A stretch of 64,000 bases of DNA from a virus, in IMG/VR virus record IMGVR_UViG_3300011008_000022; one strand, written 5' to 3'. The notes below the pieces were generated by a model. It saw only the letters and a program-made list of their open reading frames with translations, searched no databases and was not told the DNA's origin. This document shows positions 131 to 63,661 of the stretch, one piece after another. The stretch's first letter is position 1. The number at the start of each line of letters is the position of its first letter. The translations under genes were made by a program, and so were the position numbers.

Positions 131-592
131 ATGGAAAAAGAACAAATGAATTTTGATGTTCAGGCCGCTAAGTATCTCGGCCAGATTGAGAAAAAAGAAG
201 TGTATAACCAGGGCGATATGGAAACATGTTTCGTTACTGGTTGTATGGTTGCCTCTGAACTGCAGGAGGATTGTACGGGAACCTTTGGCCAGGCTATCGG
301 CTCTTTGCGCCATGGTAAGCTCGTGGCACGTAAAGGATGGAATGGTAAGGGCATGTTCCTCTTTATGCGTCCTTTTGATAGTCTGGATGATAAGTTTGTC
401 ATCGATACGATGAAGTCGGCACCATTCAATTATAAAGAATGGCTGAAAAACCACCCCTCTGAGGATGGACGTGTCCTCTTCCGTGAATATATCTGTATGA
501 AGGCTGCTGATGGTTCTGTAGTGAATGGTTGGCTCGCCTCTCAGACGGATATGCTTTCTGATGACTGGGAAATTGTTGATCCTAATAAGTAA
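131..592 (+). CDS. DUF2829-like phage protein
   Basis: The ORF track gives 89-592, but the first 14 codons are a GTG read-through of hairpin 92-111; the first ATG is at 131. The motif GKLVARKGWNGKGMFLF resembles the DUF2829 family, recognised from memory. Confidence 0.55.
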   Translation: MEKEQMNFDVQAAKYLGQIEKKEVYNQGDMETCFVTGCMVASELQEDCTGTFGQAIGSLRHGKLVARKGWNGKGMFLFMRPFDSLDDKFVIDTMKSAPFNYKEWLKNHPSEDGRVLFREYICMKAADGSVVNGWLASQTDMLSDDWEIVDPNK

Positions 593-597
593 TCGTT

Positions 598-1215
598 ATG
601 GGAGAAATCAAGGTTACTGTTCCTGATGGTAAGAAAGCCGAATGGAAAGAACTTAATGGCGTTACGGTTTTAACGCTCGTGGATGCTGATAATAACCAGC
701 AGTCAGAGTACGTCCCCGACCCTCGCCCCGTCACAGAACGCATCAAAACTTTCGAGGATGCTTGCGATGACCTCAATCGCCGTGCTCAGGCTGGCGACAA
801 ACTGGCTAACGATCTGATGACCGACCTCCAGTTTAACTCGCCACGTACACCCGACCTGCTTGCTTACATCCAACTGCGCATCATTACCTATGCCCTCAAT
901 GAAGGATGGGTGCCACAGTTTACTGAGGATGAATATCGCTACTATCCTTACTTCTACCTCTATACCCAGAAGGAGATAGACGAAATGAGTGAGGATGATA
1001 AGGCACAGCTGCTGCTCGTCGGGGGTGACGCGGCTTACGGTGCGCAATGCGGTCTCTCGTCTGCGTACTCGTCTCTCGGTTTCTCGGTCTCGCCCGCGAG
1101 CATCGGCGCTCGCCTGGCCTTCAAATCGAGCGAACTCGCGAAATACGCTGGTCGCCAATTCGCTGCGCTATGGTCGGCCCTGGTCTTCAAACCAATTCCT
1201 GAAGAGCAGAAGTAA
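598..1215 (+). CDS. DGR variable protein 2 (remote target, C-terminal C-type-lectin-like VR)
   Basis: The 205 aa ORF has codons 137-175 encoded by VR2 (1007-1122). VR2 matches TR 20052-20167 except at TR adenines. The motif QLLLVGG..G..CG......IGARLAF is shared with ORF 18497-19750. Confidence 0.85.
   Translation: MGEIKVTVPDGKKAEWKELNGVTVLTLVDADNNQQSEYVPDPRPVTERIKTFEDACDDLNRRAQAGDKLANDLMTDLQFNSPRTPDLLAYIQLRIITYALNEGWVPQFTEDEYRYYPYFYLYTQKEIDEMSEDDKAQLLLVGGDAAYGAQCGLSSAYSSLGFSVSPASIGARLAFKSSELAKYAGRQFAALWSALVFKPIPEEQK
1007..1122 (+). repeat. DGR variable region VR2
   Basis: Ungapped 116 nt alignment to TR. There are 19 mismatches, all at TR adenine positions, and all 89 non-A positions are identical. 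Confidence 0.9.
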
Positions 1216-1216
1216 T

Positions 1217-1984
1217 ATGATGAACATTGACACCATATATAACATGGATTGTCTCGAAGGTATGAGGCAGATGGAGGATAACAGCGTAGATGCTGTTATC
1301 ACTTCACCGCCTTATAACTTCGGCTTACGCATCCATTCTGGTAAATATACCAAATGGACGAAGGGTGAGACATTCGGTTATACCGGCCTCCCTGCTAATC
1401 GTTACGACAACCGTGTGAATGATGCGCTGTCAATGGATGACTATTTCAACTGGCAATGTCAGTGTATCGACGAAATGTTACGTGTCAGCAAAGGACCTGT
1501 CTTCTATAACATAATGATGATAACAGGTAATAAGGTGGCTCTGATGAAAATCTTTGGCCACTTCGCTGACCGCATCCGTGATATCCTTATCTGGGATAAG
1601 AAATCGTCTGAACCGGCCATGCACTCAGGAGTGCTCAACTGTGAGTATGAATTTATCATTGCTTTCGATAAGCACGATTGTAAAGGTCGCCAGTTTCCTC
1701 TGTTGAACGCTGAACGTGGTAAACTTTCCAATGTTTTGAGAATTGGAAAGAACCACAAAGGAGGTCATCGGGCAGCATTCCCTACCCTCTTACCTCAGAC
1801 GCTCATCCACTATTTCATGCCAATGGGGGGGGTAATTCTCGACCCTTTTCTTGGAAGCGGCACTACAGCAGTAGCAGCTATCAAAGAGAAAAGTCATTAT
1901 ATAGGCTTTGAACTTCATCCAGAGTATTTCGCAATGGCTGAGAAGAATCTCAAAATAGAATTATCACAACAAACATTATTTTAA
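1217..1984 (+). CDS. DNA methyltransferase, beta-class N4/N6 (SPPY motif)
   Basis: Starts MMNIDTIYNMDCLEGM. It has DAVITSPPYN (motif IV) upstream of ILDPFLGSGTTAVAA (motif I). The track ORF 989-1984 has an N-terminal extension that reads out of frame across VR2. Confidence 0.8.
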   Translation: MMNIDTIYNMDCLEGMRQMEDNSVDAVITSPPYNFGLRIHSGKYTKWTKGETFGYTGLPANRYDNRVNDALSMDDYFNWQCQCIDEMLRVSKGPVFYNIMMITGNKVALMKIFGHFADRIRDILIWDKKSSEPAMHSGVLNCEYEFIIAFDKHDCKGRQFPLLNAERGKLSNVLRIGKNHKGGHRAAFPTLLPQTLIHYFMPMGGVILDPFLGSGTTAVAAIKEKSHYIGFELHPEYFAMAEKNLKIELSQQTLF

Positions 1985-3826: not shown

Positions 3827-4645
3827 ATGAAACGAAATCATATTTCCCGTGCAAAGGCCATAGATGATGGCCGCTGGGTTCAAGGCGAACTGCATACCAT
3901 GACGCATCGCCCACACATCCATATAAACGCCTTGGAGAAAGCCGACATCGATCCCGATACCATTGGGGACTACACCGGCTGGCGTGATAAGAACGATAAG
4001 CCTATCTTTGAGGGCGATATTCTCTCACTGATTATTCCTGATGGAACGGCTCGCCTGTTTGTCGTCGAATGGAAAAACCAACTGCGTCACCTGAAACCGC
4101 TCAAAGGCTTTATCGATGATAATACCCCCGTCGAAATCTCCGGCTGGTGCTTCCGCTGGGGACAGCATCACCTCTTACCCTCTTACATCGGTCATCAGCC
4201 AGACTATAAGCGCATGGAGATTGTCGGTAACATCTACGACAATGCCAACCTCCTGACGGATGATGCAGAAGAGGAAATCGAGGGCAAACGTGAGCTGATA
4301 GGGAACACTTGCTGTATCTCTGACAAACCAGGCATTCAGGTATTCATGTATGATCTGAAAGATGAGCATGGTAGATGGCTCGCTCGTGTCATTCTCACCT
4401 CTGAAGGTCTCTTTATGTCTTACTCTGAATGGGGTAACTTCTTCCATTACTTCAATGCACCAGGCAAAGACGGCATCCGTAAGTTTATGCTGGGCATCTA
4501 TGAAGACTATTTCGCTGGCAAACTCTGTGAAGTGGAATGGAATACCTCTACCACCAAAGTACGAGCTGCTGCAAAGCGTTACGTGAAGCATGTCCTTCCC
4601 GTTCTCAAAGTGGCTATTGAAAATCAGTTAAAGCAGGAAGAATAA
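3827..4645 (+). CDS. YopX-like domain protein
   Basis: YTGWRDKNDKPIFEGDIL and MEIVGNIYDN resemble conserved YopX family blocks. Confidence 0.6.
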   Translation: MKRNHISRAKAIDDGRWVQGELHTMTHRPHIHINALEKADIDPDTIGDYTGWRDKNDKPIFEGDILSLIIPDGTARLFVVEWKNQLRHLKPLKGFIDDNTPVEISGWCFRWGQHHLLPSYIGHQPDYKRMEIVGNIYDNANLLTDDAEEEIEGKRELIGNTCCISDKPGIQVFMYDLKDEHGRWLARVILTSEGLFMSYSEWGNFFHYFNAPGKDGIRKFMLGIYEDYFAGKLCEVEWNTSTTKVRAAAKRYVKHVLPVLKVAIENQLKQEE

Positions 4646-5133
4646 TGAACCAGACACAGCGCAATCCCGTAGTAAGCTCCGATGAGTGGTACACACCCAA
4701 ATGGGTCATCGAGGAGTTAGGGCCATTTGACCTCGATCCGTGTGCCCCTATGTCGCCGCCCTATGAGATTGCGCCACTCTCTTACAACAAACAGCAGGAC
4801 GGTCTCAAACAGGAATGGCCCGACACAGCACTGGTCTTTATGAACCCGCCATATAGCCGTCCGCTGCTGCGTCCATTCGTTGAGAAGTTGGCAGAGCATA
4901 ACAATGGTATCGCCTTACTGAAGAACCAGGTCGATAACCTGCTCTTTCAGGAGGTCATCTTTCCAAAGGCGAAGTCCATGATCTTCATGCGCCATCGCAT
5001 CAAGTTCCTGCAACCTGATGGCACAACAGGCTCACCGTTTTTCGGTTCCGTCCTCGTTGCTTTTGGCTTTGAAGCAGATACTCGCCTGCGCCAATCCTCG
5101 ATACAAGGTAAATATCTAATTCTTAATCGATAA
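4645..5133 (+). CDS. phage Dam-type N6-adenine DNA methyltransferase
   Basis: Motifs SDEWYTPKWVIEELGPFDLDPCA and FMNPPYSR are typical of the small phage N-6-adenine methyltransferase family. Confidence 0.75.
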   Translation: MNQTQRNPVVSSDEWYTPKWVIEELGPFDLDPCAPMSPPYEIAPLSYNKQQDGLKQEWPDTALVFMNPPYSRPLLRPFVEKLAEHNNGIALLKNQVDNLLFQEVIFPKAKSMIFMRHRIKFLQPDGTTGSPFFGSVLVAFGFEADTRLRQSSIQGKYLILNR

Positions 5134-18496: not shown

Positions 18497-19750
18497 ATGA
18501 AGAAAGCAAAGACATTCCTCAACCCTGGTGAAGGCATCGCTCGCGTGTTGTGTGTCACCAGTGCCAGCAACTTCTACGAGGCGCTGCCATCTGAGGTTGC
18601 AAATGCGGCCATCCCCTCTACGGTGGTCGGTGCGCTCGCTTCCAAACACACGTTGGAAGAAAACTCTAACCCTGCATTCACGGTCAATAATCGTGGTGCT
18701 GCAGAACTCTATCAGACTCAGATGGGTGGCTATATGTTCTTCCGTAAAGACGGAAAAGTGTATGCTGCCAAACTGAATGGTTCTACATGGGATAAGTTCG
18801 CAGATGCGACTCCTGTCACAGCTGCTATCGAAGCAGCCTGTGAAACGATGATCCATGTGCCTGACTGTAACTATCTCGGAGAGAACAAAACTCTGAACTT
18901 TGGCGGTCTCGTGCCTATCGATGGTGGCCATATCTTTGGCTCACCTCATTGGGTAGGTGCTTACCTGATGTCTGTCGATGGTGGCGGTGCCGGACACTCA
19001 CGCCCGAACGTGGCTCCTGGTCATTCTAAGACGATGAGTGCATTCTGGAACTGCGCACAGCAGCTCGGCACACAATGGGGATTGGCCAACTATGGTTTCT
19101 TCTGTCTCATCAATGCGCTTTTCCAGGCTCGCTATGGCTCTCTGAACTCGCAGGAGGTCATTGGTGCCGGATTCCAGACAAGTTCATGGGAGGCGGCTCG
19201 TAACGTGCCTATGGGCCTCTGTAAGTCGCTGGGTGATGGCTCTGGTAAGGTGTTCTACACCGATGCTACCATTGGCGACCAATATCCTGTAAAACTCTTC
19301 GGTTTCGAGGATCTATGGGGTAAGCTGTGGGAGTCCCGTCCTGGCATCCGCTTTGAAATGCGCGATAACGTGCGCTATGCTATCGTCTATGATGGCAACG
19401 TCGTCAGCAATACTGCTACTGGACGTGAATTTATCTGTGCTCTCTCTTCTCAGAGTGGCAGTGGTACTTATGCTAAGAGCATGGAACTGGGCGAATACTG
19501 GGATATGATATGCCAGGCTGTTGGTGCCGGTTCTAATACATACTACTGCGACGGGTATTGGTTCGCTACGGGTGGTCAGCTGCTGCTCGTCGGGGGTGTC
19601 GCGTCTTACGGTGCGCTATGCGGTCTGTCGTGTGCGAGCTCGATTTACGGTTTCTCGGTCTCGCACACGATCATCGGCGCTCGCCTGGCCTTCTACGGAG
19701 AGCCGGAAATCGTGAGCGGTGCGGAGCTGGTGGCCATGATTAACGCGTAA
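18497..19750 (+). CDS. DGR variable protein 1 (likely receptor-binding/tail protein with C-terminal C-type-lectin-like VR)
   Basis: 417 aa ORF whose C-terminal region ..QLLLVGGVASYGALCGLSCASSIYGFSVSHTIIGARLAFY.. is encoded by VR1. It is preceded by TAACCCTTTAAA. Confidence 0.85.
   Translation: MKKAKTFLNPGEGIARVLCVTSASNFYEALPSEVANAAIPSTVVGALASKHTLEENSNPAFTVNNRGAAELYQTQMGGYMFFRKDGKVYAAKLNGSTWDKFADATPVTAAIEAACETMIHVPDCNYLGENKTLNFGGLVPIDGGHIFGSPHWVGAYLMSVDGGGAGHSRPNVAPGHSKTMSAFWNCAQQLGTQWGLANYGFFCLINALFQARYGSLNSQEVIGAGFQTSSWEAARNVPMGLCKSLGDGSGKVFYTDATIGDQYPVKLFGFEDLWGKLWESRPGIRFEMRDNVRYAIVYDGNVVSNTATGREFICALSSQSGSGTYAKSMELGEYWDMICQAVGAGSNTYYCDGYWFATGGQLLLVGGVASYGALCGLSCASSIYGFSVSHTIIGARLAFYGEPEIVSGAELVAMINA
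19578..19696 (+). repeat. DGR variable region VR1
   Basis: Ungapped 119 nt alignment to TR 20052-20170. There are 17 mismatches, all at TR adenines, and all 91 non-A positions are identical. Confidence 0.92.
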
Positions 19751-20051
19751 GCGTTACATCATAGGCCAGCCGGCCTCTGGCTCGCGACCTCTTTGTAAAG
19801 TGCTCGGCGGTTCCGCCGCCGAGAATGAAATAATAAAATAGTATTAACAATAAAAAAAGTCACATCAAGAGGTGAAGTCACAAGAGCGTGACCATCCATA
19901 AAAAATTGACTTACTGAGACACTTGATGTCAGGGATTGACTTCCTGAACATACAAACTGATAGACTCCTTCCCCAAAGAGAATAGCAACATAGGTTGTTC
20001 GAGCCTTCTACAGCTCAACGGGGAAACGGAGCAAACGGCAACATATCGTGG

Positions 20052-20170
20052 AGCTGCTGCTCGTCGGGGGTGACGCGAATAACGGTGCGCAATGCGGTCT
20101 ATCGTATGCGAACTCGAATAACGGTTTCTCGAACTCGAACACGAACATCGGCGCTCGCCTGAACATCTAC
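20052..20170 (+). repeat. DGR template region (TR)
   Basis: Non-coding copy of VR1/VR2. In the VR frame it reads ELLLVGGDANNGAQCGLSYANSNNGFSNSNTNIGARLNIY, with nine AAC/AAT codons. Confidence 0.92.
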
Positions 20171-20502
20171 ATTGAACAAAAAAGAGTTATCTGATATGTT
20201 TCCACTGTTTGTCCTCACTGACTTCGCGAAAGCCAAAGAGGATGAGCACACGATTGAGCCGGTCTCGATGGAGGGTTAGCGAGTGCAAAGCGGTTTCCCC
20301 GCTTTGTCCTCTCTACCCGACAGAGCAAAGATAAAAGGCGTTGGGTATGAGCCTGACATATAGATGCACTATCACATCGTCGGGCAACAGAGTCCCCTCG
20401 CGCAAGTAAGCAAGACAGTTGTACGTCTATACCGAACACCCGTGAGCCGAGAAATGTAGAAGGCCCTCCCTGAAATATCATGTGTCACAATGAAGAGAAA
20501 CA
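20171..20502 (+). ncRNA. TR-to-RT spacer, probable 3' part of the DGR RNA
   Basis: 332 nt with no plus-strand ORF longer than 27 codons. It contains hairpin CAAAGCGG-TTTCC-CCGCTTTG near 20287-20307. The function is inferred by analogy to the Bordetella phage BPP-1 TR-Sp RNA. Confidence 0.3.
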
Positions 20503-21849
20503 ATGGCAGAATTAGCTTATCAGCGAAAGAAACGCCTGCGCGGAAAGAACCGCAAACTACGCATCAGCATGGTCTATGACCCGCTGAACCTACGTCAAGC
20601 CGACATCGAGGCACGACGTGGTAAGGATGCTCATAAAGGGGTACGTCTCTTCGACAAAGACCCGCAAGGCAATCTCTCTTTACTGCATGATTGGCTGAAG
20701 ACTGAGACCTATCATACTTCTCCTGGGCATGAGTGTGTCAGACACTGCCCATGCGGAAAGGATCGAGTGCTTCACAAGCTGCCATACTTTCCTGACCACA
20801 TCGAGAACCATGCACTGATGCAGGTCATCATGCCTACCATGATGCGGGCGTATTACTACGACTCCTCGGCATCTATCAAAGGTAAGGGTATGCACTTTGC
20901 GGAACGACGTACCAAACGATACATCGATATCCACCGCAAGCATAATGACCGCATCTATTTCGTCAAACTGGATTTCGTGAAGTTCTACCATAACATCGAC
21001 CAGGAAAAGATTTACAAGCACCTGGCAAAGAAGTTTGGCGATCGGGGTGTACGCTATCTCATCCGTGAGATAGTAACGGCATGTGAAAAGGGACTGGGCA
21101 TCGGATTGTTCCCAATACAGCCTATCGCCAACTACTACACATGTCCGCTATGCCGACTGGTGATGATGCTCTTTGACGTGTGGATGGAGATATACTGCGA
21201 TGATATGGTCATCATTGGTACCGATAAGAAAGAGGTATGGAAAGCGGTAAATTTCATCCAGCAGTATGCGGAGGATGTTATGGAACAGCCACTGCATGAG
21301 AATATCGGAATGCAGATCATCGACGAACGCCACCGCCTCGATTTCGTGGGTTACATGTTTTTCTTCAAACACACGCTGCTGCGCAAGCGGATGAAAAAGA
21401 AGTTTAAGCGGAAGATGCACCGCATCAAAGACCCGCTGAAACGCTATCGCGCCGCTGCAAGTTACAAAGGATGGCTCATGCACTGCAATGGTTTTAGTCT
21501 CTGGTGTGCTGTAATGAATATGAAATCTTACAAGGAACTAAATGTACCTACATTCGAGAAAAAGAACGCAGAGGGCAAACGCATACTCGAAGGAACAAAG
21601 GTATCGGCATCGATGCTTTGTGGACGCGAGTTGGTGTTTACTGACGTGGAGTTTGACGTGAAATCGAAGTACAACAAGCCGGCAACAGTGATTCAGGTGG
21701 AGGAGAACGGACAAAAATATAAGTTCTTCACCAACAACCAGAAACTCACACAGGCGCTGTCCTACATCAATGCTCACGATGGCTTCCCGTTCAAGGGCAC
21801 AATCGTTCGCACAAACTCCTCTGGCCTACCCGACTACGCCATACAGTAG
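20503..21849 (+). CDS. DGR reverse transcriptase with about 108 aa C-terminal extension
   Basis: IGLFPIQ resembles the DGR-type [I/L]GxxxSQ motif. The catalytic YCDD is at 21193-21204. SYKGWLMHCNGFSLW resembles the usual DGR RT C-terminus at aa 320-335, but the ORF continues to aa 448. Confidence 0.88.
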   Translation: MAELAYQRKKRLRGKNRKLRISMVYDPLNLRQADIEARRGKDAHKGVRLFDKDPQGNLSLLHDWLKTETYHTSPGHECVRHCPCGKDRVLHKLPYFPDHIENHALMQVIMPTMMRAYYYDSSASIKGKGMHFAERRTKRYIDIHRKHNDRIYFVKLDFVKFYHNIDQEKIYKHLAKKFGDRGVRYLIREIVTACEKGLGIGLFPIQPIANYYTCPLCRLVMMLFDVWMEIYCDDMVIIGTDKKEVWKAVNFIQQYAEDVMEQPLHENIGMQIIDERHRLDFVGYMFFFKHTLLRKRMKKKFKRKMHRIKDPLKRYRAAASYKGWLMHCNGFSLWCAVMNMKSYKELNVPTFEKKNAEGKRILEGTKVSASMLCGRELVFTDVEFDVKSKYNKPATVIQVEENGQKYKFFTNNQKLTQALSYINAHDGFPFKGTIVRTNSSGLPDYAIQ

Positions 21850-53587: not shown

Positions 53588-55096
53588 ATGAACATGTTTT
53601 CTTATAACTCCGATTTCTACCCCACCCCGAAAGAAGTTATTGCCCAGATGATGATGGGCGAAGATATAGTAGGCAAAACCATTCTCGAACCCTCTGCCGG
53701 TTCTGGCAATATCGTTGACTGGCTCAAAGAGAATGGAGTCAAGGAGGTCATCGCCTGCGAGAATGACCCTACCCTACTCCGCATTCTACGCGGAAAGTGT
53801 GACATCCTGGCTGAAGACTTCCTGACAGTCACCTCCGAACAGGTCAGCCACTGCGACTATATCGTAATGAACCCGCCCTTCTCTCATGGTGCCGAGCACA
53901 TTCTTCACGCCTTCGATATTGCCCCCGCTGGCTGCACCGTCGTGGCCCTCTGTAATAGCAGCAACTTTGACTCTTTCTACCGCAACAAGACCAAACAGCG
54001 CCTCGCCGAGACTATCGACCTCTACGGACAGCGCGAGTCGCTGGGTAATGTCTTCCACACTGCCGACCGTCAGACAGATGTCAACATCGAACTTATCAAG
54101 CTATACAAGGAGGGTGCCGGTGCCAGTGAGTTCGACGGTTATATCTTTGAGCAGTACGACTCAGACACTGCTGGCACTCAGGAAGGACTCATGCAATACA
54201 ACTTCGTGCGCGATATTGTGAACCGTTACGTCTCTGCTGTTCGCATGTTCGATGAAGTTATGGCTATGTCAAAGCGCATCAATGAGGTGGCCGACTTCTA
54301 CGACTTCCGCACCGTCACCGACCCTAAGACCGGCGAAACTCGCCAGGAGCCACAATACTATGGCGGACTGCCTATCACCTTTGGCGCTCAGACCAAGGGC
54401 GAACACCCCACCGCTATCAGTCACCAGCGCTATAAGCGAGAACTGCAGAAGCACTACTGGCACATCATTTTCCAGAAGCTCAACATGGAGAAGTATGCCA
54501 CCCGCGAACTCCGTGAGCAGATCAACCGCTTCATCGAGTCCCAGAAGTGCGCACCATTCACCATGAAGAATGTCTATCGCGTCATCGATATGGTCATCCA
54601 GACTAACGGACAGCGAATGCTTACCGCCCTGGAAGAAGCCTTCGACCTCATTTGCTCACTATCTGCCGAGAACTCCACCGCTGGCGAGAAATGGAAGACC
54701 AACGCTAACTATATGGTCAATCGCCGCTTCATCGTTGACTACATCACAGAGGGTTATTTCTATGGCTCCACCCGTCCAACTGTTGACTTCCCTTGTGGTG
54801 GCCGTACCGACCGCATGGAGGATGTCTGCAAGGCACTGTGCTACCTCACTGGACGCAATTACGACGAGATAGGCCGCCTAACTCAGGTAGGCCGTGGCCA
54901 ACAGTGGGGACAGTGGTTTGAGTGGGGCTTCTTCCGCTGCCGTGGCTATAAAAAGGGCACCATGCACTTTGAGTTCCTGGACGAAGACGTGTGGGCACGT
55001 TTCAATTACGAGGTAGCCGTCCAGAAGTCCAAGACAAAAGGCTGGGACCTCCCAAAGGTCACACCTAAAAAGTCGAAAAAAACAAAAGCCGCCTAA
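53588..55096 (+). CDS. N6-adenine DNA methyltransferase (gamma-class) with large C-terminal domain
   Basis: FYPTPKEVIAQM, ILEPSAGSGNIVDWL (motif I) and VMNPPFSHG (motif IV, NPPF). Confidence 0.7.
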   Translation: MNMFSYNSDFYPTPKEVIAQMMMGEDIVGKTILEPSAGSGNIVDWLKENGVKEVIACENDPTLLRILRGKCDILAEDFLTVTSEQVSHCDYIVMNPPFSHGAEHILHAFDIAPAGCTVVALCNSSNFDSFYRNKTKQRLAETIDLYGQRESLGNVFHTADRQTDVNIELIKLYKEGAGASEFDGYIFEQYDSDTAGTQEGLMQYNFVRDIVNRYVSAVRMFDEVMAMSKRINEVADFYDFRTVTDPKTGETRQEPQYYGGLPITFGAQTKGEHPTAISHQRYKRELQKHYWHIIFQKLNMEKYATRELREQINRFIESQKCAPFTMKNVYRVIDMVIQTNGQRMLTALEEAFDLICSLSAENSTAGEKWKTNANYMVNRRFIVDYITEGYFYGSTRPTVDFPCGGRTDRMEDVCKALCYLTGRNYDEIGRLTQVGRGQQWGQWFEWGFFRCRGYKKGTMHFEFLDEDVWARFNYEVAVQKSKTKGWDLPKVTPKKSKKTKAA

Positions 55097-57807: not shown

Positions 57808-59442
57808 ATGACACATTCAGATTATATCAACGCCGTTGGCCGCGCCAACTACTACTCCCACATGTACTATGTCGCATCCGCTCCCGTTGTGAGCGATGCC
57901 GAGTTTGATGCCCTCGTCGCTCAGATCGAGCAGTACGAACGCCTCAATCCCTCACACATTCTCCCAGACAGTCCCACCCAGCAGGTAGGCTCCGACCTCA
58001 ATGGCAATGGCCGTATCGTCCACCGCACCCCTATGCTCTCCTGTCAGAAGGCTCAGGACATCCAGAAGGTTGCTTCGTGGATCAACAAGACCAACCAGCG
58101 CATGAACGCCCTCACCGGCGACAACCACACTGGCGGTTACAAGCTCGTAGCCATGTGGAAGTACGACGGCATTTCTTGCTCTCTCGTCTATCAGGATGGC
58201 CAACTCATCAGCGCTGCCACTCGTGGCGATGGTAGGGTAGGGCAGGACATCACCGCCCACGCCCTCTGCATCCCCTCCATCCCTCAGCAGCTCCGCGAGA
58301 CGGGTGCCACCTACTCCCTCGCCGGTCGTATTGAGGTCCGTGGCGAAATCGTCTGCAGCAAGCGCAACCTCCACCTACTTTCCACTCGTTACACCGATTG
58401 CCGCACAGCAGCTTCCGCTCTCTGCAACCAGTCAGTGCCCGACGCTATCGATCTCGCCATGCTCGACTTCATCCCCTGGGATGCCTATATCGACGACGCT
58501 ATCAGCAGTCAGATTCAGTTCTCTTGCACCCCGCTCGGCTACCCCTGGCATAAGTTCGACTTCCTCCATCGCCTTTGCTTCATCCACCGTCCTGACGTAT
58601 GGACCGCCCACACTCTCGACGATGTTCAGCAGCTGCTGGCGAAGCGTGAGGCAGAACGTGCCGCTTTCGACTTCCCCGTTGATGGTATCGTCCTCCGCAT
58701 CATGCACGATGACTATTTCCGCGCCCTGGGTGCCACCGCACACCATCCTCATGGCTCTATCGCCTACAAGTTCGCACCCGCTAAGGCCATCACCACATGC
58801 CGCCGTATAGAGGTGACTGTAGGTAAGACTGGCAAGCGCACCCCCGTCGCTTACTTCGACTTTGTGACCCTCCTCGACCGCGAAGTACATTCCGCCTCCC
58901 TCTATTCAGAGAAGACAGCCAACGACCTCGGCATCTATCCAGGTGCCACCATCGAGGTAGGTCTGTCAAACGACATCACCCCAAAGGTCTTTCGCGTTAT
59001 AGCCACTGCCGGCGCTTCTGTTTCCTCCGTAGGCGATGGCTCTGCCGTCGCTCCTTCCCAGCCGCTCTCGGCTGGGGTAGGGGACAATGTTACGGAAAAT
59101 AACCCCTTATCTCCCGCCTCTGACGAAGCTCCCGCCGATTGTCCCGTATGTGGCGACACTATTGCCACCGATGACGAAGAGGAAGAAGTCTGGCTCGCCC
59201 CCTCTCTCTTCTCCGACGAAGCTCCCGCCACCGCTGCCCCTGTCGCCTCTGACAAAGAAGCCGCTCCTACCACAGCGCTCGGTGGTTCTCCCACCGATGA
59301 ACCCGCCACCCCTCACCATAGCACCACCGCCGCAGTTCTCGCCACTGTCGCCTGTGCTGCAGTCCTCTGTTGCTTTGGTGCAGTAGTCCTGGGTGCTGCC
59401 GTCTTCTGTCTGCCCCTCATAGCCGGCACCCTCCGCGTATAG
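57808..59442 (+). CDS. ligA: NAD-dependent DNA ligase (LigA) core: Ia + adenylation + OB domains, with a non-canonical tail
   Basis: YYSHMYYVASAPVVSDAEFDAL...DSPTQQVG matches domain Ia. MWKYDGISCSLVY..ATRGDGRVGQDIT carries the KxDG adenylation motif. After about aa 400 the HhH/BRCT regions are absent and are replaced by low-complexity sequence and a hydrophobic C-terminus. Confidence 0.72.
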   Translation: MTHSDYINAVGRANYYSHMYYVASAPVVSDAEFDALVAQIEQYERLNPSHILPDSPTQQVGSDLNGNGRIVHRTPMLSCQKAQDIQKVASWINKTNQRMNALTGDNHTGGYKLVAMWKYDGISCSLVYQDGQLISAATRGDGRVGQDITAHALCIPSIPQQLRETGATYSLAGRIEVRGEIVCSKRNLHLLSTRYTDCRTAASALCNQSVPDAIDLAMLDFIPWDAYIDDAISSQIQFSCTPLGYPWHKFDFLHRLCFIHRPDVWTAHTLDDVQQLLAKREAERAAFDFPVDGIVLRIMHDDYFRALGATAHHPHGSIAYKFAPAKAITTCRRIEVTVGKTGKRTPVAYFDFVTLLDREVHSASLYSEKTANDLGIYPGATIEVGLSNDITPKVFRVIATAGASVSSVGDGSAVAPSQPLSAGVGDNVTENNPLSPASDEAPADCPVCGDTIATDDEEEEVWLAPSLFSDEAPATAAPVASDKEAAPTTALGGSPTDEPATPHHSTTAAVLATVACAAVLCCFGAVVLGAAVFCLPLIAGTLRV

Positions 59443-60521: not shown

Positions 60522-61385
60522 ATGGCACGTATTAAAGAAATCCTGGCATTCGCCAACAATAAGGGTGGGGTAGCCAAAACCACCACCGTCCAGAACGTCG
60601 CTGCCGGTCTTCTCCGGCGCAACAGTCGTCTGCGCATCCTCTGCATCGATCTCGACCCGCAGGGCAATCTTTCTTCCCTCCTCGGCTGGCGCGATAAGAT
60701 GAAGGAGTACCACGCTAAGAACCTCGCCACTCTCACCGTGGCCGATGCCCTCCGCGATGGCGACAACAACCACCTGCCTGTCTATCAGTCTCGCAAGGGT
60801 CTCTACTATGTCCCCGCCTCTGCCGGACTGTCCGACATCGACCCTGACCTCCATCGTCAGATGCAGTCCAAGCTGGTGCTTTCGTCACTCTTTGGCAATG
60901 ACATCTTCGACATGGACCACCTCTACCTCGGTGCAAAGGCACTCGATGGCGAATACATTGAAGACACCTTCGACTATGTGCTCATCGACTGTGCTCCTGC
61001 CCTCTCCGAACTAACCTTCAACGCGCTCGCTGCCGCCTCTGGTGTCATCATCCCCGTGCAGCTCGGCTCGCTTTCAGTCGATGGCATTGGCCGCATGGTC
61101 GAAGCCTACAAGAATGTCAAGCGCAAACTCAATGCCGACCTCGACATGCGGGGCTTGCTCATTGTCATGGCCGACGAGCGCACCCGACTGGCTCGTGAGA
61201 CTACCGACTACCTCCGCGACCAGTACGACACCACTATCTTTAAGACGCGCATCCGCCAGTGTGTTAAGGTGGGCGAAAGCCAGTTCCAGCATGAGGACAT
61301 CTTCACCTATGCCCCCGAATGCACCGCCTCTCACGACTACCGCGACTTCGTTTCCGAACTCATCAAAACCCAAAATCCTGAATAA
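60522..61385 (+). CDS. parA: ParA/Soj-family partition ATPase
   Basis: Deviant Walker A ANNKGGVAKTTT and Walker A' LCIDLDPQGN. The 287 aa size is typical. Confidence 0.8.
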   Translation: MARIKEILAFANNKGGVAKTTTVQNVAAGLLRRNSRLRILCIDLDPQGNLSSLLGWRDKMKEYHAKNLATLTVADALRDGDNNHLPVYQSRKGLYYVPASAGLSDIDPDLHRQMQSKLVLSSLFGNDIFDMDHLYLGAKALDGEYIEDTFDYVLIDCAPALSELTFNALAAASGVIIPVQLGSLSVDGIGRMVEAYKNVKRKLNADLDMRGLLIVMADERTRLARETTDYLRDQYDTTIFKTRIRQCVKVGESQFQHEDIFTYAPECTASHDYRDFVSELIKTQNPE

Positions 61386-61944: not shown

Positions 61945-62192
61945 GGGGTATTTCTCCGTAGCCTTCGGTGGCATTCTCCGTAACCTTTGGGCTGTTCTTG
62001 GTAACGGTGGGGTGCATTTCCGGCCACTCTCTTCGTTAGGGGTCATTTTCCGTAACTCTCTCCCCGTTGTTCTCTATGTTGCTATACCATCGCAACTCTT
62101 CTATAAGGGGTCATTTTCCGTAACTCTCCCCCGTCCGTGCATGTGGCTATGCCATAGCCACCAGTCATTTAAGGGGTAAATCTTCGTAACTA
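61945..62192 (+). repeat. iteron-like array GGGGT.ATTT(T)CCGTAAC upstream of rep
   Basis: Copies near 61945, 61967, 62008, 62038, 62106 and 62172. Two are perfect 23-mers, AGGGGTCATTTTCCGTAACTCTC, at 62038-62060 and 62106-62128. Confidence 0.7.
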
Positions 62193-63661
62193 TGGCAAAG
62201 AAAACTGATAAGATGCAGCAGCTCATCAAGTCTGACAATAGCATCATCCGCGAACTCCGCGACCAGAAGTGGATCTACAATCCAAAAGTCTATGCTCAGG
62301 TGGCAGGCGACTTCTCCCTCATGCACCAGCGCGTCCTCATGGGTGTACTCGAAAAGTTGCAGGACCGCATCGCCTATTCTGCTTCCGAACATCAAAAGAA
62401 CCAGCAACTCTGGCTGCCGCTTTTCGCACCAGAGGAAATGAATACCTCCGTTGACTTCGAGATCGAGGCTCGTGACCTGGGTGTCACTCCTGGCCACTAT
62501 CCCGAACTGGCTCAGGCACTCGGCGACCTCGTAAGCATGAAGATAGGCTATCCGAAGAAAAAGGGCAATAAGACCGTCTATGTCTTCGCCTCGCTCTTCT
62601 CTCGCATTGAAATGCCTACCTCCGATAATGGCTGGCGCACCGGCAAAATCCGTGTCAAGATGGATAAGGAGAATGTCAACGACTTCCTCTCTATGGATCG
62701 TGGTTATACCGACCATATCGCCCGCATAGCCCAGTTCTCAAAGAAACAGCGCACACCGCGCATCTATATCTATCTCTCCACCTTCAAGTACAAAGGACGT
62801 AACGAGGTGGAGTACCCCGAACTCTGCGAATTTCTCGGCATCGACGATGCTACCTACGTCGCTACTCATAAGGCCGAGAAACCCGATGTCAAACCTACCG
62901 ACAATCCCTTCCACAAGTTCTCAAAGGTCAAGAAACTCATCCTCGACCCCTCTAAGGCCGAAATGGATGCTTTCTCTGCTGACCGCAAAATCGACTTCTC
63001 TTTCACCTACGAACCGCTCTATAAGGATGGACGCAAAAAGGGCAATCCTACCCATATCGAGTTTGTCATTGTCCCTGGTGCCCTCGGCATCGAACGCGAA
63101 CAGGAACGCAAGCGCCACAACCAGATACAGGCGCTCATCAATGCCCTCACCCGTCAGTGGTCCGACCTCCATGCCTACGACCTCCTCGAAGTCGCTAAGG
63201 ATGTTGCTGATGATTGGCTCGACGACTTCTGCAACTATGCCTATGATGATGTGCGCCGCCAGGTGGAGAAAACACAGCCCGACCATGTAGCCGAATACGT
63301 CCTCACCCTCCTGCAGACGTGGGTCAAGAATAAGACCAACGAGGCTCGCCGTTTGGAGGTAGAGCGCAAACGTCAGTACGACATCTTCGTCCAGCAGCAG
63401 GCAGAAAGCCGGTGGCGTTCGCTGATGCAGGAACTCGGCGCACAGACCCCTCTCCGTGCCCGTCAGATCAACATCGAGCGCTATGACGAAGAAACTCACA
63501 CCCTCACCATCGCCCTCGCCGGCAAGGATATCTACGACCAGATAGAACCTATCACCGACGACCAGGGCAACACCATCACCAAAGGCATCTATCAGGATAT
63601 CTGGTTTTCTCTTGTGCGCAAATACTTTCCCCGCTCCATAGTCCAGTACCGCATGTCCTGA
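62192..63661 (+). CDS. replication initiator candidate (Rep_3/RepB-like N-terminus)
   Basis: SNSIIRELRDQ...FSLMHQRVLMGVLEKLQ resembles iteron-plasmid initiator N-termini. The ORF is flanked by direct repeats. 489 aa. Confidence 0.5.
   Translation: MAKKTDKMQQLIKSDNSIIRELRDQKWIYNPKVYAQVAGDFSLMHQRVLMGVLEKLQDRIAYSASEHQKNQQLWLPLFAPEEMNTSVDFEIEARDLGVTPGHYPELAQALGDLVSMKIGYPKKKGNKTVYVFASLFSRIEMPTSDNGWRTGKIRVKMDKENVNDFLSMDRGYTDHIARIAQFSKKQRTPRIYIYLSTFKYKGRNEVEYPELCEFLGIDDATYVATHKAEKPDVKPTDNPFHKFSKVKKLILDPSKAEMDAFSADRKIDFSFTYEPLYKDGRKKGNPTHIEFVIVPGALGIEREQERKRHNQIQALINALTRQWSDLHAYDLLEVAKDVADDWLDDFCNYAYDDVRRQVEKTQPDHVAEYVLTLLQTWVKNKTNEARRLEVERKRQYDIFVQQQAESRWRSLMQELGAQTPLRARQINIERYDEETHTLTIALAGKDIYDQIEPITDDQGNTITKGIYQDIWFSLVRKYFPRSIVQYRMS

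What the first reader, a model, noticed from the sequence alone, without database searches (positions are those of the whole stretch)
19578..21849. Complete DGR core: VR1, TR and reverse transcriptase with strictly adenine-specific TR/VR differences
TR (20052-20170) and VR1 (19578-19696, the C-terminal region of ORF 18497-19750) align without gaps over 119 nt. I count 17 mismatches. Every one is at a TR adenine: TR positions 20073, 20078, 20079, 20081, 20091, 20101, 20106, 20112, 20118, 20120, 20132, 20133, 20138, 20145, 20162, 20163 and 20165. All 91 non-adenine positions are identical. Read in the VR frame, TR encodes ELLLVGGDANNGAQCGLSYANSNNGFSNSNTNIGARLNIY, with nine AAC/AAT codons; this is the codon design that maximises diversity under A-to-N mutagenesis. 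The adjacent ORF carries RT motifs (IGLFPIQ, YCDD at 21193-21204, SYKGWLMHCN). Together these are the signature of mutagenic retrohoming, here in a phage of a Bacteroidota-type host. The diversified protein lies at the end of the virion operon.
Basis: partly seen in the sequence, partly recalled or inferred. Interest (0 to 1): 0.9.

Follow-up and report, generated by a model that had tools for sequence, protein, structure and literature searches.

The report
Two-target phage hypermutation retroelement (DGR)
This is a genuine, apparently active diversity-generating retroelement in a ~100-kb phage of rumen/gut Prevotella-type bacteria; it rewrites a tail-module protein and also a second, distant protein that is encoded next to, or fused to, an anti-defence (AcrIIA7/Tad2-type) domain.

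Summary
TR 20052-20170 and VR1 19578-19696 align without gaps with 17 differences, all at TR adenines (P=1e-13). The ORF at 20503-21849 is a DGR-type reverse transcriptase; its best sequence and fold match is the Bordetella phage bRT (TM 0.88). Related genomes supply the population test. In 15 loci, 216 of 387 TR-adenine cells differ from the VR against 3 of 1233 non-adenine cells. Across 121 protein homologues the 14 most variable columns are all adenine-containing VR codons.

Corrections and additions:
- The last three "mismatches" (20162, 20163, 20165) never vary. They are a fixed IMH/IMH*-type difference, not mutagenesis.
- A second target, VR2 (1007-1122), lies 19 kb away in a 205-aa non-virion protein next to an AcrIIA7/Tad2 homologue. 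In sister phages that protein is fused to a Tad2-like domain and is still a target.
- No Avd is detectable in the window. The RT carries an extra C-terminal β-rich domain.
- The TR-RT spacer is a conserved, covariation-supported structured RNA. One 12-nt block in it is antisense to the VR-type end plus the TR flank, as proposed for the BPP-1 primer.
- The C-type lectin fold could not be verified.

Verdict: a new variant of a known kind of system.

The parts
20052..20170 (+). Template repeat (TR). It is non-coding. Positions 1 to about 110 are the copied template and carry 24 adenines. Positions 111-119 (AACATCTAC) are the TR-type, IMH*-like end, which is not transferred.
   Evidence: This is the only TR-like copy in the window apart from the two VRs.
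19578..19696 (+). Variable repeat 1 (VR1), encoding residues 361-400 of the 417-aa target. The segment 19675-19685 is a GC-rich block (CGGCGCTCGCC). The segment 19687-19696 (GGCCTTCTAC) is the fixed VR-type, IMH-like end.
   Evidence: 14 of 14 copied-part differences fall on TR adenines. VR1 is a ~13-fold substitution hot spot between genomes 98.7-99% identical. The 14 most variable columns of 121 homologues all lie here.
18497..19750 (+). Target gene 1, encoding a 417-aa protein of the tail module.
   Evidence: The C-terminal half matches PHROG 5302 'tail protein' at E=1.3e-36. It is 33% identical over 99% of its length to the LoVEphage 'tail collar fiber protein'. Its fold was not verified.
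1007..1122 (+). Variable repeat 2 (VR2), a remote second target of the same TR, about 19 kb upstream. The segment 1116-1122 (GGCCTTC) is its IMH-like end.
   Evidence: 16 of 16 copied-part differences fall on TR adenines, P=1e-13. VR2 is conserved and adenine-diversified in L017, L018, L019 and L123 and in LoVEphage. The 14 most variable columns of 57 homologues are all TR-adenine codons.
598..1215 (+). Target gene 2, encoding a 205-aa protein of unknown function (PHROG 11581) in a non-structural neighbourhood.
   Evidence: It shares only the VR-encoded segment with target 1. Homologues are fused to a Tad2-like domain.
131..592 (+). AcrIIA7/Tad2-family anti-defence homologue, 5 nt upstream of target gene 2. 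This is context and not a DGR part in the strict sense.
   Evidence: Pfam Tad2-like at E=2.7e-20. PDB 9kzr AcrIIA7 at E=9.8e-44, 8kbi at 2.9e-39, and SptTad2 8wjd at 3.5e-27.
20503..21849 (+). DGR reverse transcriptase, 448 aa. IGLFPIQ is at 21100-21120 and YCDD at 21193-21204. An extra C-terminal beta-rich domain spans about residues 355-448 (21565-21846).
   Evidence: R88, I200 and Q206 align with bRT R74, I181 and Q187 (roles from PMC7826257).
20247..20465 (+). Conserved structured spacer (Sp-like) RNA between TR and RT. It consists of invariant blocks plus variable hairpins, including 20351-20358/20378-20385 and 20413-20416/20425-20428 with the invariant loop AGUUGUAC.
   Evidence: The core is found in 82 IMG/VR contigs. 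In the alignment of 48 distinct copies, 96.5% of cells pair against 25-56% in slid controls, and 77 cells show compensatory change against at most 11. The element lies between a TR (60 of 60 loci) and an RT ORF (59 of 60). No Rfam family matches.
20454..20465 (+). Primer-like block ATGTAGAAGGCC within the spacer RNA. It is antisense to the VR-type end GGCCTTCTAC plus the TR 3' flank (..TCTACAT).
   Evidence: Across 19 locus types its reverse complement matches VR positions 110-116 at 6.6 of 7 against 3.6 of 7 for the TR, and matches TR positions 117-121 at 3.7 of 5 against 2.5 of 5 for the VR. BPP-1 shows the same relation, as proposed in PMC5703328.
20003..20012 (+). Segment GCCTTCTACA upstream of the TR, complementary to the primer-like block. 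It is a possible long-range RNA pairing partner.
   Evidence: It is conserved 43-102 nt upstream of the TR and covaries with the block in L111 and L074.
19803..19823 (+). GC-rich hairpin (CTCGGCGG-TTCCG-CCGCCGAG) between the target 1 stop codon and the TR. It may be a terminator separating the target gene from the TR-RT transcription unit.
   Evidence: The fold has z=-2.3. The functional reading is inference only.

Best explanation
This is a functional diversity-generating retroelement with one template and two targets. An RNA spanning the TR and the roughly 330-nt spacer is bound by the reverse transcriptase encoded just downstream. A conserved block in the spacer (20454-20465) pairs with the 3' end and flank of the TR and positions the start of cDNA synthesis near TR position 110. 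The TR's last nine bases are therefore not copied. The RT copies the TR faithfully except opposite adenines, where any base may be inserted. The cDNA, still joined to the RNA block, replaces the homologous stretch of VR1 in a tail-module gene or of VR2 in a small gene 19 kb away. Both VRs carry GGCCTTC, the sequence to which the RNA block is perfectly antisense, whereas the TR has AACATC at that place. This explains why information flows from TR to VR and never back. Each event rewrites 14 codons, none of which can become a stop, giving about 3e12 possible variants of a 40-residue surface patch. Shown here: the anatomy, the adenine specificity, the RT identity, diversification across natural populations, RNA conservation and covariation, and block/IMH covariation. 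Inferred: the priming site, RNA-guided targeting, and what the two proteins bind. No Avd protein is present. The large structured spacer RNA and the RT's extra C-terminal domain may take over its scaffolding role, but that is speculation.
For: - Anatomy and statistics. VR1 has 14 of 14 and VR2 16 of 16 copied-part differences at TR adenines (P=1e-11 and 1e-13). All 14 differences between VR1 and VR2 are at TR adenines.
- RT identity: Pfam RVT_1; PHROG 1423 at 1.8e-63; best PDB sequence hit bRT 8ub7 at E=7e-19; AF2 model at pLDDT 87; best fold hit 8ub7_A at TM 0.88 and 2.5 A, ahead of group II, retron and DRT RTs; bRT R74, I181 and Q187 are conserved as R88, I200 and Q206.
- Activity in nature: each of 15 loci has its own TR/VR pair, with 216 of 387 adenine cells differing against 3 of 1233 non-adenine cells. 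Six loci with an identical TR have different VRs. VR1 carries 15-17 substitutions per 119 nt against about 1% background between genomes ~99% identical. Both VRs carry the window-specific TR bases C9, T10 and G21. Protein entropy is 2.11 against 0.21 bits for VR1 and 2.66 against 0.28 for VR2.
- RNA.
- Primer block and IMH. BPP-1 shows the same relation. Literature: PMC5703328 and 10.1101/2023.10.23.563531.
- No Avd.
Against: - There are no read-level or experimental data; activity is inferred from comparisons between assemblies.
- The serine of the signature motif [I/V/L]GxxxSQ is isoleucine here (IGLFPIQ).
- No Avd was found, although BPP-1 needs one. Only 64 kb of a genome of about 100 kb could be scanned.
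- If the block primes near position 110, its pairing with the TR has mismatches at three of the five template-proximal pairs, which is poorer than in BPP-1.
- The block has two further possible partners: an upstream RNA segment and the 5' motif of the element. RNA-DNA pairing with IMH is therefore not the only reading of its conservation.
- The invariance of VR codons 398-399 (Ala-Phe) could also come from protein-level selection.
- DNA hairpins downstream of the VRs are not distinctive.
Confidence: 0.9

Rival explanations
1. The element is a relic. The RT, TR and VRs are leftovers of a once-active DGR, and the differences seen today were fixed long ago.
For: Only single assemblies were compared and no reads were available. 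In one relative (L010/L017) both VRs share a non-adenine change. In the LoVEphage record MW660583 the RT matches are split over two reading frames, so decay does occur in the wider group.
Against: The RT ORF is intact with all catalytic and fidelity residues. In the window no non-adenine difference exists in either VR over 110 nt. Genomes ~99% identical differ at 15-17 VR positions. Both VRs carry the window-specific TR bases, so both were rewritten after a recent TR change. The spacer RNA is under strong purifying selection.
Confidence: 0.05
2. The three fixed 3' differences (TR AAC ATC against VR GCC TTC) lie inside the copied region. They look invariant only because proteins lacking Ala-Phe at residues 398-399 do not fold, so selection removes all other outcomes.
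For: All three are at TR adenines, so they are formally compatible with adenine mutagenesis. GCC TTC is the only way to obtain Ala-Phe from NNC NTC. The block/TR duplex would have fewer proximal mismatches if priming occurred at about position 113.
Against: The same fixed bases occur in two unrelated proteins, VR1 and VR2, and in every lineage, while the TR's version of these positions drifts freely and includes non-adenine differences. The spacer block is perfectly antisense to the VR version and covaries with it. In BPP-1 the equivalent TR end is experimentally not copied, with cDNA starting at TR G117. Random copying would make more than 99% of homing events lethal to the protein.
Confidence: 0.15
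3. The RT belongs to another retroelement class (group II intron, retron or defence-associated RT), and the TR/VR similarity is an ordinary duplication.
For: There are weak profile hits to group II intron, retron and DRT models.
Against: All those hits are far below the family cut-offs (45 bits against 300, 38 against 235). The best sequence and fold match is the DGR RT. The adenine-only pattern has P=1e-13 and recurs in every relative. There is no intron RNA, msr/msd or effector context.
Confidence: 0.01
4. Function of target 2: it is a second host-adhesion or receptor-binding protein, incorporated into the virion or displayed on it although encoded outside the structural module, like the second targets of other two-target phage DGRs.
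For: Its VR-encoded segment is the same as that of the tail-module target. A distant homologue in Bacteroides phage Versailles is annotated 'tail protein', and there is a weak C-terminal hit to PHROG 5302 'tail'. Two-target phage DGRs whose targets are both predicted binders are described in PMC10743442.
Against: In every genome examined the gene sits among non-structural genes: methylases, AcrIIA7/Tad2, MazG, PNK phosphatase, PAPS reductase. In this phage group it is fused to, or adjacent to, an anti-defence-family domain. No virion-anchoring domain was detected.
Confidence: 0.45

Closest known systems
Bordetella phage BPP-1 DGR (mtd-avd-TR-brt), the prototype
   Same: The gene order is target-VR, TR, spacer, RT. 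Mutagenesis is adenine-specific. A GC-rich block is followed by a VR-type (IMH) or TR-type (IMH*) end. The RT fold matches at TM 0.88. The key residues R74, I181 and Q187 are conserved. The spacer RNA has a primer strand that pairs with the TR 3' end yet is a better antisense match to the VR IMH.
   Different: There is no Avd. The RT is 120 residues longer, with an extra C-terminal domain. The motif is IGxxxIQ instead of IGxxxSQ. The spacer RNA is larger (about 220-330 nt against 140) and unrelated in sequence. There are two targets, one of them 19 kb away. No distinctive DNA hairpin lies after the VR.
DGRs of Bacteroides phages (hankyphage p00) and crAss-like phages (cr50_1, cr55_1, cr10_1, Zeta crAss-like)
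   Same: These are the nearest annotated RTs, at 30-34% identity; the hankyphage and MT836998 matches extend through the C-terminal domain. Most crAss-like DGRs also lack Avd (PMC12386605). The target is a tail protein with a C-terminal VR.
   Different: RT identity is only about 30%, and there is no DNA similarity. The conserved spacer-RNA core was found by an exact 24-specified-base pattern in 82 IMG/VR contigs; whether hankyphage or crAss-like DGRs carry it was not tested. A second, remote non-structural target is not described for them in the papers read.
Bacteroides phage LoVEphage (MW660583) and relatives BI-TP1 and PV4-TP1
   Same: They carry homologues of both targets, at 33% and 50% identity. 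I found the same two-target layout: VR1 in the tail collar fibre gene (13 of 14 differences at adenines) and VR2 in hypothetical protein QVQ57199.1, about 15 kb away (17 of 17 at adenines).
   Different: The genome is 71 kb and temperate, with integrases. The spacer-RNA motifs are absent. The target-2 neighbour is DUF2400, not Tad2-like. The published description mentions only the RT next to the tail collar fibre gene (PMC8525569). The RT matches in that record are split over two frames.
Two-target phage DGRs with 'tentaclins' (phages nd4 and nd12; PMC10743442)
   Same: One TR serves two unrelated target proteins that share only the VR-bearing module.
   Different: There, both targets lie inside the cassette and both are predicted virion or adhesion proteins (a C-lectin domain plus Ig domains). 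Here the second target is 19 kb away, small, has no Ig domains, and is linked to an anti-defence family domain.
AcrIIA7 / Tad2 (PF11195, formerly DUF2829) anti-defence proteins
   Same: The gene at 131-592 is a full-length homologue (PDB 9kzr at E=1e-43; Tad2 structures at E=1e-12 to 1e-39). N-terminal domains of fused target-2 homologues pass Pfam's Tad2-like cut-off.
   Different: Known members are stand-alone sponges or inhibitors. In the library searched, no paper links this family to a DGR target. The activity of these particular proteins is untested.

Membership tests
Diversity-generating retroelement (DGR) | A reverse transcriptase of the DGR clade | tested here: met
   The best PDB sequence hit is bRT 8ub7 at E=7e-19. 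The best fold hit is 8ub7_A at TM 0.88 and rmsd 2.5 A, ahead of group II, DRT and retron RTs. PHROG 1423 matches at 1.8e-63. Pfam RVT_1 scores 30.4 bits against a cut-off of 29.6.
Diversity-generating retroelement (DGR) | Catalytic YxDD box and the signature motif [I/V/L]GxxxSQ (not the QGxxxSP of other RTs) | tested here: inconclusive
   YCDD is present at 21193-21204. The motif reads IGLFPIQ: the I, G and Q positions are met, but the S is replaced by I. That position is at least 90% conserved as I205 across 62 clade members. The motif definition is from PMC7826257. The motif is clearly not QGxxxSP.
Diversity-generating retroelement (DGR) | A non-coding TR and a VR at the 3' end of a gene, differing only at TR adenines | tested here: met
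   VR1 has 14 of 14 and VR2 16 of 16 differences at adenines in the copied part, with no non-adenine difference in 110 nt. The same holds in 14 related loci.
Diversity-generating retroelement (DGR) | Natural variation confined to TR-adenine positions of the VR | tested here: met
   At the DNA level, 56% of adenine cells differ against 0.24% of non-adenine cells across 15 loci. VR1 is a hot spot between genomes ~99% identical. At the protein level, the 14 most variable columns are all adenine codons in both target families. This was tested on assemblies, not on reads.
Diversity-generating retroelement (DGR) | A GC-rich element plus IMH at the VR 3' end, differing from IMH* at the TR 3' end | tested here: met
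   CGGCGCTCGCC(TG) is followed by the invariant GGCCTTC in VR1, VR2 and all relatives, against the drifting AACATC / AAATT. in TRs.
Diversity-generating retroelement (DGR) | A cis-acting spacer RNA downstream of the TR that forms the template:primer duplex | tested here: met
   There is a conserved structured RNA with a block that pairs with the TR 3' end and flank and covaries with it (AUGUAG/CUACAU against GUGUAG/CUACAC). The priming itself cannot be tested here.
Diversity-generating retroelement (DGR) | An Avd accessory protein (present in many DGRs but not all) | tested here: not met
   There is no PF05635-type hit in any window ORF. phmmer --max with BPP-1 Avd against 533 six-frame ORFs gives a best E of 1.2. 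The remaining ~40 kb of the genome was not scanned. Avd-less DGRs are accepted members (PMC12386605).
Diversity-generating retroelement (DGR) | A DNA hairpin or cruciform just downstream of the VR (a BPP-1 feature that enhances homing) | tested here: inconclusive
   Short inverted repeats involving the GC block exist after both VRs, but their folding energies are no better than shuffled sequence (z=-0.8 and +0.5), and no clear covariation was seen.
Diversity-generating retroelement (DGR) | The VR displayed on a C-type lectin (or Ig-like) fold of the target protein | tested here: inconclusive
   The AF2 model of target 1 failed, at mean pLDDT 36.5 from a shallow alignment. There is no significant PDB sequence or profile hit for either target and no Pfam hit. 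The only indirect support is the PHROG 'tail protein' family and a VR motif reminiscent of Mtd, the latter recalled from my own knowledge.
AcrIIA7 / Tad2-like (PF11195) for gene 131-592 and for the N-termini of fused target-2 homologues | Sequence membership above the curated cut-off and homology to solved members | tested here: met
   Pfam E=2.7e-20 at 73 bits against a cut-off of 25. PDB 9kzr at E=9.8e-44 over residues 8-150. Fused proteins score 42-45 bits.
AcrIIA7 / Tad2-like (PF11195) for gene 131-592 and for the N-termini of fused target-2 homologues | Anti-CRISPR or anti-Thoeris activity (signal sequestration) | not testable with these tools
   This needs biochemical or infection assays.

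The most novel reading that the evidence does not exclude
The second target is not a receptor-binding protein but an intracellular counter-defence factor. In this reading the DGR hypermutates a ligand-binding module that works with, or is fused to, an AcrIIA7/Tad2-type anti-defence domain. The phage could then rapidly evolve binding to variable host immune proteins or signals. This would be the first case of DGR-driven diversification used for anti-defence rather than for attachment.
Probability: 0.2. Interest if true: 0.85.

Novelty: new variant of a known kind. Interest (0 to 1): 0.58.

Why it matters
Taken alone, the DGR core is a textbook example and mainly adds a well-documented member from an abundant, unannotated group of ~100-kb rumen/gut phages.

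Three things go beyond that. First, the same TR rewrites a remote, non-structural protein that is adjacent to or fused with an AcrIIA7/Tad2-type domain, and that protein is also an unreported second target in the widespread LoVEphage. This raises the testable idea that phages use DGRs in the arms race inside the cell as well as at its surface.

Second, this Avd-less clade offers a natural comparison for how DGR RTs are scaffolded. It has a large covariation-supported spacer RNA and an extra RT domain where BPP-1 has Avd.

Third, the covariation between the spacer primer block and the VR-specific end, across many lineages and two targets, gives independent comparative support for the proposal made from BPP-1 alone: that the cDNA-linked RNA primer selects the target by pairing with IMH. 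How DGR cDNA finds and enters its target is still an open question.

Tried and rejected
- **Adenine-biased TR drift.** The window's TR differs from the otherwise identical TR of six relatives at 4 positions, 3 of them ancestral adenines. I suspected self-mutagenesis of the TR. Over 45 distinct TRs, deviation from consensus is 10.9% at adenine positions and 10.1% at other positions, so there is no general bias and the idea is dropped.
- **DNA hairpins downstream of VR1 and VR2.** As BPP-1-like target markers they are not better than shuffled sequence.
- **Target fold.** The AF2 model of target 1 failed at pLDDT 36.5. Profile searches of both target families against PDB sequences found nothing significant. 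No claim about a C-type lectin fold is made.
- **First collection scan.** The scan with the window's own TR pattern returned 0 hits, because relatives have AA and A where the window has CT and G. It does not indicate rarity.
- **Avd.** None was found by Pfam on the whole proteome (the 'Serglycin' hits are artefacts of my GS linkers) or by phmmer with BPP-1 Avd.
- **RNAalifold helix.** The outermost helix (5' CACAC with GUGU of the block) is poorly supported, with 8 broken cells and no compensation. Pairing of the block with the TR 3' flank fits the variation better.
- **Register error.** My first block/VR/TR comparison was off by two. It is corrected.
- **Rfam.** No family matches in 19500-20700.
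- **Defence-RT models (PADLOC).** Only weak generic RT hits were found.
- **RT C-terminal domain.** There is no PDB sequence hit. Its beta1-3, helix, beta4-5 order suggests an OB-like barrel, but this was not tested.

Full report
**1. Checking the observation**

The repeat is real and is exactly as described. The repeat finder reports a 119-nt direct repeat at 19578-19696 and 20052-20170 (family D2). Each is an adenine in the TR. The TR has 28 adenines, and all 91 other positions are identical. The hypergeometric probability that 17 of 17 mismatches fall on adenines is 1.3e-13. VR1 lies in frame at residues 361-400 of ORF 18497-19750. The TR read in that frame carries 7 AAC and 2 AAT codons. 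The RT ORF (20503-21849) contains IGLFPIQ, YCDD at 21193-21204 and SYKGWLMHCN.

**2. Identity of the reverse transcriptase**

- Pfam RVT_1 is matched just above its cut-off (30.4 bits against 29.6).
- PHROG 1423 'reverse transcriptase' matches strongly (E=1.8e-63).
- Against all solved structures, the best sequence match is the Bordetella phage DGR RT (8ub7, E=7e-19).
- An AlphaFold model built on 62 homologues is confident (mean pLDDT 87). Its best fold match is again 8ub7_A (TM 0.88 on the target, 2.5 A), ahead of group II intron, DRT9, G2L4 and retron RTs.
- In the alignment, bRT R74, I181 and Q187 correspond to R88, I200 and Q206. Of these, R74 and I181 promote adenine misincorporation (PMC7826257). 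R88 and I200 are invariant and Q206 is at least 90% conserved in the clade.
- One deviation: the signature [I/V/L]GxxxSQ reads IGLFPIQ, with Ile for Ser throughout the clade.
- Hits to group II, retron and DRT models are far below their cut-offs.

**3. The population test**

GenBank phages hold no DNA relative, but IMG/VR holds 16 loci encoding RTs 53-100% identical.

- Every locus with enough flank has its own VR and TR upstream of the RT, with 14-22 differences, nearly all at TR adenines.
- Pooled over 15 loci and repeat positions 1-108, 216 of 387 TR-adenine cells differ from the VR, against 3 of 1233 other cells.
- Six loci share an identical TR yet all have different VRs.
- Two contigs are 98.7% and 99.0% identical to the window over 9.3 kb without gaps. 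Background divergence is 2-3 substitutions per 250 nt, while VR1 carries 15-17 in 119 nt.
- At the protein level, among 121 homologues of the target the 14 highest-entropy columns of the whole 417-residue protein all lie in the VR at adenine-containing codons. Mean entropy is 2.11 bits there, 0.21 for other VR residues and 0.19 elsewhere.

**4. Correction: three of the 17 mismatches are not mutagenesis**

Residues 398-400 (VR GCC TTC TAC; TR AAC ATC TAC) are invariant in all 121 homologues. At the DNA level every VR ends ...CTGGCCTTCTAC (or GGCTTTCTAC in a sister clade). The TRs instead end AACATCTAC, AAATTATAC, AAATTCACA and so on, including non-adenine differences. So TR positions 111-119 are a TR-type end and the VR has a fixed VR-type end. 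This is the IMH*/IMH arrangement known from BPP-1, preceded by a GC-rich block (CGGCGCTCGCC). The copied part still shows 14 of 14 differences at adenines (P=1e-11).

**5. A second target**

Searching the whole window with the TR, allowing any base at adenines, finds a third copy at 1007-1125. Over positions 1-110 it has 16 differences from the TR, all at adenines (P=1e-13). It shares GGCCTTC and then diverges. All 14 differences between VR1 and VR2 are at TR adenines.

VR2 lies at residues 137-175 of a 205-aa ORF (598-1215; PHROG 11581, unknown function). It is conserved and adenine-diversified in the three related contigs that cover the region. Across 57 close homologues the 14 most variable columns are again TR-adenine codons. 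Both VRs carry the three bases (C9, T10, G21) by which the window's TR differs from its relatives, so both were rewritten after that change.

The two target proteins share only the VR-encoded segment: 40 residues by BLASTP and 57 columns by hhalign.

**6. What the targets are**

Target 1 sits in the tail module.
- Its C-terminal half matches PHROG 5302 'tail protein'.
- It is 33% identical over its full length to the 'tail collar fiber protein' of Bacteroides phage LoVEphage.
- Tail-like genes flank the cassette on both sides, so it is not at the end of the operon.
- I could not verify a C-type lectin fold. The model failed (pLDDT 36.5), and neither target family has a significant match to PDB sequences.

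Target 2 lies among non-structural genes.
- Immediately upstream (131-592, a 5-nt gap) is a full-length homologue of AcrIIA7 (PDB 9kzr, E=1e-43) and of solved Tad2 anti-Thoeris sponges (Pfam Tad2-like E=2.7e-20).
- Downstream are DNA methylases.
- Many homologues of target 2 are 244-299 aa long because a Tad2-like domain is fused to the module that corresponds to residues 39-205.
- In L018, the contig whose RT is 100% identical to the window's, the VR2 gene is such a fusion, and its VR shows 18 of 18 differences at adenines.
- In an ENA contig, the fused gene P0329 shows 15 of 15.
- Within this phage group the association is 5 of 5: two adjacent and three fused.
- In seven more distant relatives the neighbours are MazG, PNK phosphatase, Myb-like or unknown genes, which are non-structural but not Tad2.
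- LoVEphage has the same two-target layout: 17 of 17 differences at adenines in hypothetical protein QVQ57199.1. The paper describing that phage does not mention it.
- No paper in the searchable library links Tad2/DUF2829 to a DGR target.

**7. No Avd, an extra RT domain and a large structured RNA**

No Avd-type family is hit by any ORF of the window. BPP-1 Avd finds nothing in 533 six-frame ORFs. Avd-less DGRs are known in crAss-like phages (PMC12386605). The RT has a confident extra domain at about residues 355-448, with three strands, a helix and two strands. It matches PHROG 19665, function unknown, and has no PDB sequence match.

The 332-nt TR-RT spacer contains a ~220-nt element (20247-20465) made of nearly invariant blocks interrupted by variable hairpins. 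It is conserved in loci whose RTs are only 53% identical. Its core pattern occurs in 82 IMG/VR contigs, always between a TR (60 of 60) and an RT ORF (59 of 60). No Rfam family matches.

On 48 distinct copies, an explicit five-helix structure has 96.5% of cells paired, against 25-56% when partners are slid, and 77 compensatory cells against at most 11. Two hairpins carry the covariation: 7 of 8 pairs in one and 3 of 4 in the other.

**8. The primer-like block and target choice**

The 3' block of the element, AUGUAGAAGGCC (20454-20465), has the reverse complement GGCCTTCTACAT. That equals the VR-type end GGCCTTCTAC followed by the TR's own flank (TR ...TCTAC|AT).

Across 19 distinct locus types:
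- The reverse complement matches positions 110-116 of the VR at 6.6 of 7, and of the TR at 3.6 of 7.
- It matches positions 117-121 of the TR at 3.7 of 5, and of the VR at 2.5 of 5.
- It covaries with both partners: GAAGGC with GCCTTC against GAAAGC with GCTTTC; GGCG with CGCC in L074; AUGUAG with CUACAU against GUGUAG with CUACAC.

In BPP-1, cryo-EM shows a TR117-129:Sp47-56 template:primer duplex with three non-standard pairs. cDNA starts at TR G117. I verified that the reverse complement of Sp47-56 (TGACCACCTA) matches VR 118-126 perfectly, whereas the TR differs there. Naorem et al. 2017 noted this for BPP-1 and proposed that the cDNA-linked RNA primer pairs with IMH DNA and so sets the direction of homing. 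The idea is therefore not new. The comparative covariation in a distant, Avd-less clade with two targets is new supporting evidence.

Two caveats apply. An upstream segment (GCCTTCTACA, 20003-20012) is also complementary to the block and covaries with it in two lineages, so RNA-RNA alternatives exist. And VR2 matches the block at only 8 of 12 positions.

**9. Context**

All genes are on the + strand. Relatives are 96-108 kb long. The closest cellular-genome hits (60-78% RT identity) are ~100-kb contigs binned with rumen or caecum Prevotellaceae, and one is in the isolate Prevotella sp. tc2-28. The terminase resembles those of Porphyromonas and other Bacteroidota phages. The window also encodes ParA, an NAD-dependent ligase and several methylases.

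**10. Verdict**

The finding is correct: this is a genuine and very probably active DGR. As a DGR it is a known kind of system. It is a variant in four respects:
- it lacks Avd;
- its RT has an added domain and an IGxxxIQ motif;
- it has a large conserved spacer RNA;
- it has a remote second target tied to an anti-defence family.

The most novel reading not excluded is that the second target acts in counter-defence. I put that at about 0.2.

Noticed in passing
window 92, 8379, 11506, 13542, 16314, 17253, 21852, 22618, 23155, 29531, 33461, 34284, 38154, 41213, 41785, 43165, 43884, 52800, 59057, 63689: There are 20 copies of a palindromic GC hairpin, CCCAGCC(G)YTCTCGGCTGGG. Most copies checked lie between + strand genes, typically ~20 nt before the next start codon, and one sits right after the RT stop. 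It is probably a terminator, processing site or regulatory element of this phage. It also suggests that the ORF listed from 17241 really starts at about 17289.
   Followed up: partly
window 131-592: This gene encodes a close full-length homologue of the anti-CRISPR AcrIIA7 (PDB 9kzr, E=1e-43) and of Tad2 anti-Thoeris sponges. It lies directly upstream of the second DGR target.
   Followed up: yes
window 20060, 20061, 20072, 20101 (TR): The window's TR differs at 4 positions (AA>CT, A>G, T>A) from a TR that is otherwise identical in six relatives up to 15% diverged elsewhere. Both VRs follow the new TR. Family-wide TR drift is not adenine-biased, so self-mutagenesis is not supported. The cluster of changes remains unexplained.
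   Followed up: yes
L010:3129 and L017:1963 (same IMG/VR contig 3300038674_000117): VR1 and VR2 of this relative share the same non-adenine change (TR TCGTATGCG, both VRs TCGGTTGCG). This suggests a TR polymorphism not captured in the assembly, or one VR copied from the other.
   Followed up: no
L125:2375-2959 and L126 (Bacteroides phage LoVEphage MW660583): LoVEphage has an unreported second DGR target (hypothetical protein QVQ57199.1, 17 of 17 differences at TR adenines), about 15 kb from its RT. In this record the RT matches are split over two frames (residues 29-197 and 277-441), and no match covers the YxDD region.
   Followed up: partly
window 20003-20012: GCCTTCTACA lies 49 nt upstream of the TR and is perfectly complementary to the spacer's primer-like block. 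A similar segment is conserved 43-102 nt upstream of the TR in relatives and covaries with the block in two outlier lineages. It may be a long-range RNA duplex, analogous in role to the BPP-1 avd:Sp 'stop' duplex, or an alternative resting conformation.
   Followed up: partly
window 19803-19823: A strong GC hairpin (8-bp stem, z=-2.3) lies between the target-1 stop codon and the TR. It may terminate the target gene's transcript, so that TR-spacer-RT would form a separate transcription unit.
   Followed up: no
window 60522-61385, 62192-63661, 57808-59442: A ParA-type ATPase, a 489-aa protein of unknown family just downstream, and an NAD-dependent DNA ligase are encoded here, with no integrase detected in the window. 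The ParA gene suggests plasmid-like maintenance; that is speculation.
   Followed up: no
window 1217-1984, 4645-5133, 53588-55096: There are three DNA methyltransferase-type genes (N6_N4_Mtase, Dam, and a DUF4942-containing protein). Together with the AcrIIA7/Tad2 homologue they point to a substantial anti-restriction and anti-defence repertoire.
   Followed up: no
window 21565-21846 (RT residues ~355-448): The RT has a confidently modelled extra C-terminal domain with the order strand-strand-strand-helix-strand-strand (OB-like by topology only). It matches PHROG 19665 (unknown function) and extends into hankyphage-type RTs. Its role is unknown, and it is a candidate nucleic-acid-binding substitute for Avd.
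   Followed up: partly
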